IMG/VR virus record: IMGVR_UViG_2529293239_000006
Span: 1 to 23,370 of that record
Length of the DNA stretch: 23,370 nt
Reading direction: 5' to 3' (one strand)
DNA from: a virus
Taxonomy: Duplodnaviria; Heunggongvirae; Uroviricota; Caudoviricetes
Shown here: in pieces, positions 9,059 to 10,554 of the stretch
Numbering within the stretch: position 1 is the stretch's first letter
Layout: each line of letters opens with the position of its first letter
The notes under the pieces: generated by a model
Databases searched by the model: none
Seen by the model: only the letters and a program-made list of their open reading frames with translations
Told to the model about the DNA's origin: nothing
Made by a program: the position numbers and the translations under genes

Positions 9059-10554
9059 TATGCAGACTCCTCTGAATACTGAAGACGGAACTGATTAACC
9101 ACGGCAAAGACACGCAGCTGGTTAACATAGTCAGGCGGGAACAGCGTGTTCAGGCGGTTCGGATCGCTGGCATCACGCTCCACAACCAGGTACTGCTTAA
9201 ACAGTTCGTAGTTTTCCACGATCCCCGCACGCTCAAGCTGACGGTAGGTTGCCAGCAGTTCCCCTTTGATCACCGCCGGGGTGACAATCGCCTGACCGGG
9301 ACCAAAGCGGGTACCGTCACTGGCAAGCTTGTGACGCCCGTACTTACTGGTAATGACGGATTTCAGTTTGCGCAGTACATACGCGCTGGTATGCAGCGTC
9401 TCACTGTCGAGGTAACTGTTATCCGCAACCCCGTAAGCGTTTTTCCTGTACGTGGTGACATCACGCTGAATGCGTAGTACCCCGCTTTCGACATACGCCG
9501 TTGCCACGCCATGAGACAGCAGGGTCTGTTGTTCGGTCATCGTGAACCGTTTCCCCTTCGGCGCAGGCAGCATACCCACCAGCTCACCGGTCTGCGTGGG
9601 ACGTGCCGGATCGTTGCGGATAAACACCGCTGCGCGGGCGGTACGGCTTGCCGCCAGCTCGTCGGCAGGCGTCTGGGTCTCTTTTTCGTACCCCGCCAGG
9701 GTAATGTGCTGCTGGTTAAACTGGTCACCTGCGGTCACCAGTTCTGACAGCGTGCCGATCTTTGCCGTATACACATGACCATACAGCTGACGCGCATAGC
9801 TCCAGCGACCGCTGGTATCGTTCATCTCGGTCACCAGCGTGTTAACGGAGGCCGTGTCGTTGAACGGCAGGCCGATATAATCAAACGGCTCATCCGCCAT
9901 TGCAGCCACCGCGCCGGTGAGAACCGGAGCACCCGTTCCGGCGGTACCCGTCGCCACGGCAATCTGTACGCCCGCTGGCAGCACTTCGCCCCCACCAAAG
10001 CCGTAGTAATTGAGGCTGACAGGAATTTCATTCCCACAAAGCCCCTTATGACGCGCGGTCAGTGTGACCACGCCTGCCGAAGATGAAGCCGTAAACGGCA
10101 GGGTCGGAACGGCATTGATGGCATCCTAGATACTGCTGGCAATCATCGTGACGTTATCGCCGTTAGTCACCGGTGCCTGCACGCGGGTACGTCCTACATA
10201 CACATTCACCGTGCCGGTTTCGGTTGCCGCCCCGGTCACCGTCAGCGTAACTGTTGCCGCCGCACCTGTGGATTCAGGAACGGCAATCACATACAGCTCG
10301 CCAAACGGGTCAGTCTGGCGATAAGCCTCGACCATACGCGCCAGCTGACTTCCCGCACCACAAATCTGGCGTGCATAGTCTGCCGACGACATCAGTACCA
10401 GACTGTTGGCAACAATCTCTGCACCGTTATTGGCATGACCAATCAGCAGCGATGCTCCGCTGTCCTGTGCAGTATTCGCCGCCTGGTTATCCATTTCCGC
10501 ATAAAACAACGGAACCAGCGTATTCGACGGAATGGTGTTAAAGCTTATCGTCAT
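9058..10554 (-). pseudogene. tail sheath protein gene interrupted by an in-frame amber (TAG) codon
   Basis: ORFs 10126-10554 (142 aa) and 9058-10071 (337 aa) are in the same frame, separated only by TAG at 10128-10126 (plus strand cta). The 18 codons between them are open (DAINAVPTLPFTASSSAG). Combined length is about 498 aa, the size of a Mu-type sheath protein. Confidence 0.8.

What the first reader, a model, noticed from the sequence alone, without database searches (positions are those of the whole stretch)
10069..10128. In-frame amber codon interrupts the tail sheath gene
The sheath reading frame is continuous from 10554 to 9058 except for a single TAG at 10128-10126. The flanking codons read ...NVTMIASSI-TAG-DAINAVPTLPFTASSSAG-VVTLTARHK... 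This is the signature of a nonsense mutation (an amber mutant allele, or early pseudogenisation of a defective prophage) rather than a frameshift or deletion. It could also be a base-call error.
Basis: seen in the sequence. Interest (0 to 1): 0.5.

Follow-up and report, generated by a model that had tools for sequence, protein, structure and literature searches.

The report
Amber-mutated sheath gene, dead Shigella prophage
A single C-to-T change has turned a glutamine codon of a phage tail-sheath gene into a stop codon in a prophage remnant of Shigella flexneri serotype 6 that insertion sequences had already wrecked, which is ordinary gene decay.

Summary
The minus-strand frame 10554..9058 is open for 498 codons except for one TAG at 10128-10126. 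The closest intact allele (E. coli 40EC) differs from the window's sheath gene by that one base in 1497: CAG (Gln143) became TAG. About 1,075 complete E. coli genomes, phages SfI/SfII/SfIV/SfV and phage Mu all have one uninterrupted sheath gene of about 498 codons, with Gln or Lys at this position. It is not a base-call error. The exact 142-aa and 337-aa fragments occur on about 418 contigs from independent assemblies, named in S. flexneri CCH060 and CDC 796-83. The allele is also in the complete genome of serotype 6 strain 64-5500. The prophage is otherwise dead. A second derived nonsense mutation removes six C-terminal residues of the adjacent tail terminator. The capsid gene is split by a 1310-bp IS629/IS1203-like element, and its halves were then separated by an inversion between two IS copies. 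The protease is truncated, and no portal, terminase or lysis gene lies beside the head-gene fragments in the window. No tRNA lies in the window, and no other gene carries an in-frame TAG, so recoding is excluded. Verdict: an ordinary, lineage-fixed nonsense pseudogene of low interest.

The parts
10126..10128 (-). Premature amber codon TAG, codon 143 of the sheath gene. It derives from CAG (Gln) by a C>T transition (G>A on the + strand at 10128).
9058..10554 (-). Whole tail-sheath pseudogene (498 codons plus stop). It is a homologue of SfV orf11 and Mu gpL/gp39.
10126..10554 (-). N-terminal fragment ORF, 142 aa. By alignment to Mu gp39 it holds the N-arm and the start of the protein. It has no Pfam hit. 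It is the only product expected from the normal start.
9058..10071 (-). C-terminal fragment ORF, 337 aa from the first in-frame GTG. It carries the Phage_sheath_1 and Phage_sheath_1C domains. The only Shine-Dalgarno-like triplet (AGG) lies 1 nt before the GTG, so the ORF is probably not translated.
10717..11277 (-). Tail terminator gene with a second derived nonsense mutation: GAA>TAA at 10737-10735, codon 181. The product is 180 aa instead of 186 aa.
26..9057 (-). Rest of the Mu-like tail module: tube, assembly chaperone, tape measure, DNA-circularisation/tube initiator, baseplate P/V/gp46/J/YmfQ, fibre and Tfa. It is collinear without gaps with the intact E. coli 40EC prophage, and all ORFs are open.
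12737..13371 (-). 3' half of the major capsid gene (203-aa ORF, Phage_capsid profile positions 86-280). It is cut at 13371 by the IS.
13372..14681 (+). IS3-family element, IS629/IS1203-like, 1310 bp, copy 1 (orfA 108 aa, orfB 296 aa). Its left end abuts the capsid 3' half, preceded by TAC.
20606..21638 (+). 3' fragment of the prohead protease (141-aa ORF) plus the 5' half of the same capsid gene. It now lies on the opposite strand and abuts the right end of IS copy 2, with the other TAC of the 3-bp target duplication.
21639..22948 (-). IS629/IS1203-like element, copy 2, inverted relative to copy 1. It is the partner in the inversion that separated the two capsid halves.

Best explanation
The TAG is a spontaneous nonsense mutation (CAG Gln143 to TAG, one C>T transition) in the tail-sheath gene of an SfV/SfI-type temperate myovirus (HK97-like head, Mu-like contractile tail). 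That phage is integrated in, and decaying within, a Shigella flexneri lineage that includes serotype 6 strain 64-5500. The allele is inherited and shared by many independent assemblies of that lineage. Translation from the normal start should end after 142 residues. By analogy with Mu gp39, that product keeps the N-arm but lacks most of domains I and II and the C-arm, which make the inter-subunit 'handshake' beta-sheets, so it cannot polymerise into a sheath (inferred). The downstream 337-codon ORF is a by-product of mechanical ORF calling, not a gene. Because the prophage can no longer make heads (capsid split by an IS and inverted, protease truncated), selection on the tail genes is gone. 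Nonsense and radical missense changes therefore accumulate; the sheath amber is one of several. Shown: the mutation, its direction, its presence in many assemblies, and the other lesions. Inferred: loss of function, and the absence of suppression.
For: (1) There is one internal stop in an otherwise open 498-codon frame.
(2) The window's sheath gene differs from the intact E. coli 40EC allele at one base of 1497, CAG>TAG at codon 143.
(3) Codon 143 is CAG in 40EC, strain 113, JNE21-003, NU14 and phage SfV. It is AAA or AAG (Lys) in more distant E. coli alleles, and Lys in Mu gpL. All of these genes are uninterrupted.
(4) About 1,075 of 5,426 complete E. coli genomes carry a place covering at least 80% of the gene. 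Every listed hit is annotated as a tail sheath protein, and all eight sheath genes I translated are open.
(5) The exact 142-aa product is listed in 443 blocks of public assemblies. The two fragments are on 418 and 419 contigs, named in S. flexneri CCH060 and CDC 796-83. All six fetched loci carry TAG, including the complete genome CP026811.1 (strain 64-5500, serotype 6 per PMC9455713).
(6) Other lesions are derived on the same branch when polarised against three intact relatives: tail terminator E181* (GAA>TAA), capsid Y242N and gp46 W119R. TMP W492C is seen only in the window and the identical locus L003 among those compared. A sister lineage (L004) has a further nonsense, YmfQ W155*.
(7) The capsid gene is split by a 1310-bp IS. 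Its halves lie on opposite strands, each next to one of two inverted IS copies, with the 3-bp TAC duplication divided between them. The protease is truncated, and no portal, terminase or lysis gene is adjacent.
(8) The window has no tRNA. The 19 other phage ORFs end in TGA or TAA and none has an in-frame TAG.
Against: Nothing contradicts it directly. Several points remain untested. Loss of function is inferred, not measured. I could not scan the host genome for an amber suppressor tRNA; a supE-type glutamine suppressor would restore the exact wild-type protein. Apart from the sheath and the terminator's last six residues, every tail ORF is still open and gap-free relative to an intact prophage, so inactivation is fairly recent and residual tail-module function is not formally excluded. 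On the Shigella branch the substitutions are about six synonymous, two missense and two nonsense. That sample is too small to show fully neutral evolution.
Confidence: 0.93

Rival explanations
1. Sequencing or base-call error: the true codon is CAG and the stop exists only in this assembly.
For: Only one base differs from the intact allele, which is what a single error would look like.
Against: The exact truncated 142-aa and 337-aa products are on 418-419 contigs from NCBI, ENA and Logan assemblies of independent runs. All six fetched loci carry TAG, including a finished 4.66-Mb chromosome and a metagenome scaffold.
Confidence: 0.01
2. Conditionally expressed allele: the amber is read through, or suppressed by a host suppressor tRNA such as a supE-like tRNA-Gln(CUA). 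Full-length wild-type sheath is then still made and the tail module still yields tail-like particles.
For: A Gln suppressor would restore the ancestral residue exactly. All other tail ORFs remain open and gap-free. The allele is stably inherited in many isolates.
Against: The window has no tRNA. Amber suppressors are laboratory alleles and are not known as a natural feature of Shigella (own knowledge). The neighbouring terminator carries an ochre (TAA) mutation that an amber suppressor would not correct. The same branch and its sister carry further radical and nonsense changes, which suggests no selection to keep the module working. Stable inheritance is equally expected for a neutral lesion in a clonal pathogen.
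Confidence: 0.03
3. Functional split gene: the 142-aa and 337-aa products are both made and assemble in trans into a working sheath subunit.
For: Both ORFs were called as separate CDSs by the depositors (EFW62218.1/EFW62217.1 and others). The C-terminal ORF retains both Pfam sheath domains.
Against: No homologue is split. More than 1,000 E. coli prophages, SfI/II/IV/V, ST64B and Mu all have one gene. The GTG at 10071 is simply the first start-like codon after the stop. It would omit 18 residues of the original protein, and its only Shine-Dalgarno-like triplet sits 1 nt upstream. The split postdates divergence from a 99.9%-identical intact allele.
Confidence: 0.01
4. Stop-codon reassignment: the element uses a code in which TAG encodes Gln, as in code-15 phages.
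For: The ancestral residue is Gln, and none of the other 19 phage ORFs in the window uses TAG as its stop.
Against: There is one in-frame TAG in about 13 kb of coding sequence, not many. The window has no suppressor tRNA and no release-factor gene. Intact relatives that are 96.5-99.9% identical have CAG or AAR at this codon and are ordinary code-11 enterobacterial phages. With TAG used at roughly 7-8% of E. coli stops (own knowledge), finding 0 of 19 is unremarkable.
Confidence: 0.005

Closest known systems
Tail sheath protein of the S. flexneri serotype-converting phages SfV (orf11, NP_599043), SfI, SfII and SfIV
   Same: The gene is 96.5-97.9% identical in nucleotides over the full 1497 bp. 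Gene order is the same: terminator, DUF2635, sheath, tube, chaperone, tape measure, Mu-like baseplate. SfV has Gln at codon 143. SfI and its relationship to SfV are described in PMC3636060.
   Different: Those are viable phages with an uninterrupted sheath gene. Here the gene carries an amber codon, and the element has lost a working head module.
Phage Mu sheath gpL/gp39 (PDB 9khy, PMC11915804)
   Same: The proteins are homologous end to end (E = 3.6e-80, residues 3-490 against 4-494). The Mu structure has an N-arm, domains I-III and a C-arm. The arms and domain I form the four-stranded 'handshake' sheets, and domain I of the last ring binds the terminator's C-terminal beta-hairpin. This provides the mechanistic basis for calling the truncation inactivating.
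   Different: The HMMER alignment shows only moderate residue identity (percentage not computed). Mu has Lys at the equivalent position. The head module here is HK97-type rather than Mu-type.
e14-like and SfV-like prophages of E. coli (e.g. strain 40EC, NZ_CP070920; O157-type strain 113)
   Same: Strain 40EC is 99.55% identical over 13.3 kb without a gap. The annotated genes ymfQ, ymfR, tfaE and pinE are shared with the K-12 e14 remnant.
   Different: The E. coli copies shown have intact sheath, terminator, capsid, protease, portal and terminase genes.
Pseudogene and IS-driven genome decay in Shigella
   Same: This is the general, well-documented pattern (own knowledge): IS expansion, inversions between IS copies and point-mutation pseudogenes. 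In this window there are two IS629/IS1203-like copies, another IS3-family element, an IS66 orf2, a further transposase fragment, two nonsense mutations and an inversion.
   Different: Nothing differs in kind. This is one more instance.

Membership tests
Contractile-tail sheath protein family (Pfam Phage_sheath_1 + Phage_sheath_1C; Mu gpL type) | Significant match to the subtilisin-like and C-terminal sheath domains | tested here: met
   The C-terminal fragment matches PF04984 (3.3e-34) and PF17482 (5.4e-22). The full length matches the Mu sheath 9khy at 3.6e-80.
Contractile-tail sheath protein family (Pfam Phage_sheath_1 + Phage_sheath_1C; Mu gpL type) | Position in a tail module directly upstream of the tube gene | tested here: met
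   The tube gene (PF10618) starts at the sheath stop. The terminator and DUF2635 genes lie upstream.
Contractile-tail sheath protein family (Pfam Phage_sheath_1 + Phage_sheath_1C; Mu gpL type) | A single uninterrupted polypeptide carrying both the N-arm and the C-arm | tested here: not met
   An in-frame TAG sits at codon 143. The locus is therefore a pseudogene of the family, not a functional member.
Point-mutation (nonsense) pseudogene | The stop codon is one substitution away from the sense codon of the closest intact orthologue, with frame and length otherwise conserved | tested here: met
   CAG>TAG is the only difference in 1497 bp, and there are no indels.
Point-mutation (nonsense) pseudogene | The allele is real and heritable, i.e. 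seen in independent assemblies | tested here: met
   443 blocks and about 418 contigs carry the product, and six of six fetched loci carry TAG.
Point-mutation (nonsense) pseudogene | No full-length product is made | not testable with these tools
   This needs proteomics or an immunoblot, and a whole-genome tRNA scan for suppressors. Only the window was scanned, and it has no tRNA.
Defective (cryptic) prophage | Essential morphogenesis genes are disrupted or missing | tested here: met
   The capsid is split by an IS and its halves are inverted. The protease is reduced to a 141-aa 3' fragment. The protease fragment is followed by an IS rather than by portal and terminase genes.
Stop-codon-reassigned phage (TAG read as Gln, code 15) | Many in-frame TAGs spread over the genes, plus a suppressor tRNA | tested here: not met
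   One TAG in 20 ORFs, no tRNA, and close relatives have CAG or AAR at this codon.
R-type tailocin (domesticated tail cluster) | A complete, intact set of tail genes including the sheath, kept without head genes | tested here: not met
   The sheath is interrupted and the terminator truncated. Head-gene debris is still present, so this is decay rather than tidy domestication.

The most novel reading that the evidence does not exclude
The amber allele is not null. Low-level readthrough, or an unrecognised natural suppressor in this S. flexneri lineage, would yield wild-type (Gln143) sheath. The otherwise open 13-kb Mu-like tail module would then be retained as a tightly throttled, tailocin-like killing or injection device, with the amber codon acting as an expression brake.
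Probability: 0.02. Interest if true: 0.45.

Novelty: already known. Interest (0 to 1): 0.07.

Why it matters
It matters little beyond annotation. The two CDSs deposited for this locus (for example EFW62218.1 and EFW62217.1) should be merged and flagged as one sheath pseudogene, and the neighbouring terminator should be noted as truncated. The CAG>TAG site, the terminator GAA>TAA site and the IS-split capsid junctions could serve as lineage markers, because all amber-bearing loci examined share the first two. One sister contig with an intact capsid shows that the IS insertion came after the amber. The locus is also a clear example of the order of events in prophage decay in an IS-rich pathogen.

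Tried and rejected
1. A scan of the GTDB species-representative genomes for a 51-nt exact pattern spanning the TAG found nothing. This is uninformative, because the collection holds only one genome per species and so need not include this lineage. The exact-protein look-up succeeded instead.

2. The complete E. coli RefSeq genomes hold no copy with the amber. The best hits are 99.8% identical over 451 bp, i.e. the one mismatch.

3. My first attempt to polarise substitutions with k-mer anchors gave off-by-one artefacts. I discarded it and redid the mapping with fuzzy 61-mer matching.

4. I first attributed the 100% match to CP026811.1. Per-subject BLAST showed that the identical locus is AKMW01000021.1 (L003), and that CP026811.1 differs at 5 of 19,470 bases and rearranges beyond window 19595.

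5. Reinitiation at GTG 10071: the only Shine-Dalgarno-like triplet is 1 nt upstream, so I rejected it.

6. Code reassignment and naturally split genes were considered and rejected.

Full report
**Observation**

The minus-strand frame from 10554 to 9058 translates as a 498-residue protein followed by TAA. Mechanical ORF listing breaks the frame in two. One ORF is 142 aa (10126..10554, ATG start). The other is 337 aa, beginning at the first start-like codon after the stop, GTG 10071. The finding's coordinates span that gap.

**What the gene is**

- The 337-aa part carries the Pfam sheath domains Phage_sheath_1 (3.3e-34) and Phage_sheath_1C (5.4e-22). The 142-aa part has no Pfam hit.
- With Gln restored, the protein aligns end to end (3-490 against 4-494, E = 3.6e-80) with PDB 9khy. 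That entry comes from the cryo-EM study of phage Mu, where the sheath protein is gp39/gpL (PMC11915804).
- At the DNA level the closest cultured phages are the S. flexneri serotype-converting myoviruses SfI, SfIV, SfII and SfV, at 96.5-97.9% over all 1497 bp. SfV orf11 is annotated as 'tail sheath, similar to Mu GpL' and sits in the same gene order. SfI and its relation to SfV are described in PMC3636060.
- About 1,075 of 5,426 complete E. coli genomes carry a place covering at least 80% of the gene. Every listed hit is annotated as a phage tail sheath protein.

**Which codon was there**

The nearest intact allele is E. coli 40EC (WP_000155730). It differs from the window's 1497-bp sheath gene at exactly one base, giving CAG in 40EC against TAG here.

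| Source | Codon 143 |
|---|---|
| E. coli 40EC, strain 113, JNE21-003, NU14 | CAG (Gln) |
| Phage SfV | Gln |
| E. coli MRSN346647, DAM | AAA (Lys) |
| E. coli allele at 77% identity (JNE25-005) | AAG (Lys) |
| Phage Mu gpL | Lys |

These come, and every one of these genes is uninterrupted. The event is therefore a C>T transition (G>A on the + strand at 10128), Gln143 to amber. The hypothesis that the two ORFs are naturally separate genes is refuted.

**Real allele or error**

- The exact 142-aa product is listed in 443 blocks of public assemblies.
- The 142-aa and 337-aa sequences are on 418 and 419 contigs from NCBI, ENA and Logan. They are named in S. flexneri CCH060 and CDC 796-83.
- All six fetched loci carry TAG. 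They include the finished chromosome CP026811.1, which PMC9455713 lists as strain 64-5500, serotype 6.
- Window 126-20554 is 100% identical to AKMW01000021.1. It is 99.97% identical to CP026811.1 over 126-19595.

A base-call error is excluded. This is an inherited allele of a lineage that includes S. flexneri serotype 6.

**Context: the prophage is dead**

Window 26-13371 is collinear without a gap (99.55%) with the intact 40EC prophage, from the tail-fibre assembly gene to the middle of the capsid gene.

- At 13371 the capsid gene is cut by a 1310-bp IS3-family element at 13372-14681 (orfA 108 aa, orfB 296 aa). E. coli hits annotate this element as IS1203-like.
- The missing 5' half of the capsid gene, with a 141-aa 3' fragment of the prohead protease, lies at 20606-21638 on the opposite strand. 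It abuts a second, inverted copy of the same IS at 21639-22948.
- The capsid coordinates overlap by 3 bp. TAC precedes the left end of copy 1 and follows the right end of copy 2, each read in the IS's own orientation.
- This is the signature of one insertion with a 3-bp target duplication, followed by inversion through recombination between two inverted IS copies.
- On its upstream side the protease fragment is followed by another IS3-family element (19393-20597), not by portal and terminase genes.
- The inverted segment also holds a dinB-like polymerase, a GNAT acetyltransferase, an RtcB fragment, a further transposase fragment, and a Dit-like gene plus a tape-measure gene fragment from another phage. 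An IS66 orf2 lies just beyond IS copy 2, at 23020-23370.

**Other point lesions**

I compared the window with 40EC and polarised each difference against strain 113 and NU14. The following changes are shared by the amber-bearing loci that cover each site:

- tail terminator GAA>TAA at codon 181 (window 10737-10735), removing six C-terminal residues; all eight intact homologues have Glu there;
- capsid Y242N;
- gp46 W119R;
- six synonymous and two intergenic changes.

TMP W492C is seen only in the window and the identical locus L003 among the loci compared. A sister contig (L004, run ERR5951538) has the amber and the terminator stop but an intact 401-aa capsid gene, and it carries an extra nonsense mutation, YmfQ W155*. 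So the amber arose before the IS entered the capsid gene, and decay has continued independently in different sub-lineages.

**Mechanistic consequence (inferred)**

In Mu, gp39 consists of an N-arm, domains I-III and a C-arm. The N-arm of one subunit, the C-arm of its neighbour and two strands of domain I from the next ring form the four-stranded 'handshake' sheets that hold the sheath together. [quoted passage not shown] A 142-residue product lacks the C-arm and the Pfam-defined core domains, so it cannot build a sheath. The terminator truncation may affect the same interface. The GTG at 10071 has only an AGG one nucleotide upstream as a possible ribosome-binding site, so independent translation of the C-terminal part is unlikely.

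**Alternatives**

- Recoding of TAG is excluded. There is one in-frame TAG among 20 phage ORFs, and the window holds no tRNA. The other 19 ORFs stop with TGA or TAA, and intact close relatives have CAG or AAR at this codon.
- Suppression by a host tRNA cannot be tested, because only the window and fetched loci are accessible. A supE-type suppressor would restore the wild-type residue. Natural Shigella strains are not known to carry one (own knowledge), and the adjacent ochre mutation would remain.
- A functional split sheath has no precedent among more than 1,000 homologues.

**Comparison with what is known, and novelty**

This is a pseudogene of the SfV/Mu gpL sheath family inside a cryptic SfV-like prophage, in a genome type known for IS expansion and pseudogene accumulation. 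GenBank depositors already list the two fragments as separate CDSs. Nothing here departs from known biology. The practical value is limited to correcting the annotation and to possible lineage markers.

**Verdict**

Interest is low (0.07). Confidence in the nonsense-pseudogene explanation is 0.93.

Noticed in passing
window 10735-10737 (- strand); gene 10717-11277: There is a second derived nonsense mutation in the gene just upstream of DUF2635 and the sheath. Tail terminator codon 181 is GAA>TAA, giving 180 aa instead of 186 aa. All eight intact homologues have Glu, and all amber-bearing loci share the TAA. In Mu the terminator's C-terminal beta-hairpin contacts the last sheath ring.
   Followed up: yes
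window 13369-14681 and 21636-22948; capsid halves 12737-13371 (-) and about 21065-21638 (+): The major capsid gene was hit by a 1310-bp IS629/IS1203-like element. Its halves were then separated by an inversion between two inverted IS copies. The 3-bp target duplication TAC is divided between the two junctions.
   Followed up: yes
window 6816 (TMP W492C), 3089 (gp46 W119R), 13219 (capsid Y242N): These are radical missense changes derived relative to three intact E. coli relatives. W492C is seen only in the window and the identical contig AKMW01000021.1 among the loci compared. The other two are shared by all amber-bearing loci that cover those sites.
   Followed up: partly
L004 (Logan ERR5951538) 487-1692 and 12447-12911: This sister lineage has the same amber and terminator stop but an intact 401-aa capsid gene, plus its own extra nonsense mutation, YmfQ W155*. 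So the amber predates the IS insertion in the capsid, and decay continues independently. The contig ends at the same protease breakpoint as window 20579.
   Followed up: partly
window 14679-19382: The inverted segment holds unrelated material: a transposase orfA fragment (14679-15029), a weak RtcB N-terminal fragment (15081-15344), a GNAT acetyltransferase overlapping a DinB/ImpB-family polymerase (15563-17076; it resembles the chromosomal dinB-yafP pair, from memory), and a Dit-like gene plus a 443-aa tape-measure fragment (17123-19382) from a different, probably siphovirus-type, prophage remnant.
   Followed up: partly
window 19393-20597 and 23020-23370: Two further IS elements are present. 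One is a different IS3-family element (orfA 112 aa, orfB 279 aa) that truncates the prohead protease. The other is an IS66-family orf2 (TnpB_IS66) running off the right end of the window.
   Followed up: no
L002 (CP026811.1, strain 64-5500) 1-960 versus window 19595-20554: The finished serotype 6 genome departs from the window beyond 19595, where an IS629-like copy replaces the window's sequence. IS-mediated rearrangement of this region therefore differs between strains that share the amber allele.
   Followed up: partly
window 1-13348, stop codons of the 19 other phage ORFs: None of the other phage ORFs ends in TAG (10 TGA, 9 TAA). This is compatible with chance given how rarely E. coli uses TAG, and I do not take it as evidence of recoding.
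   Followed up: yes
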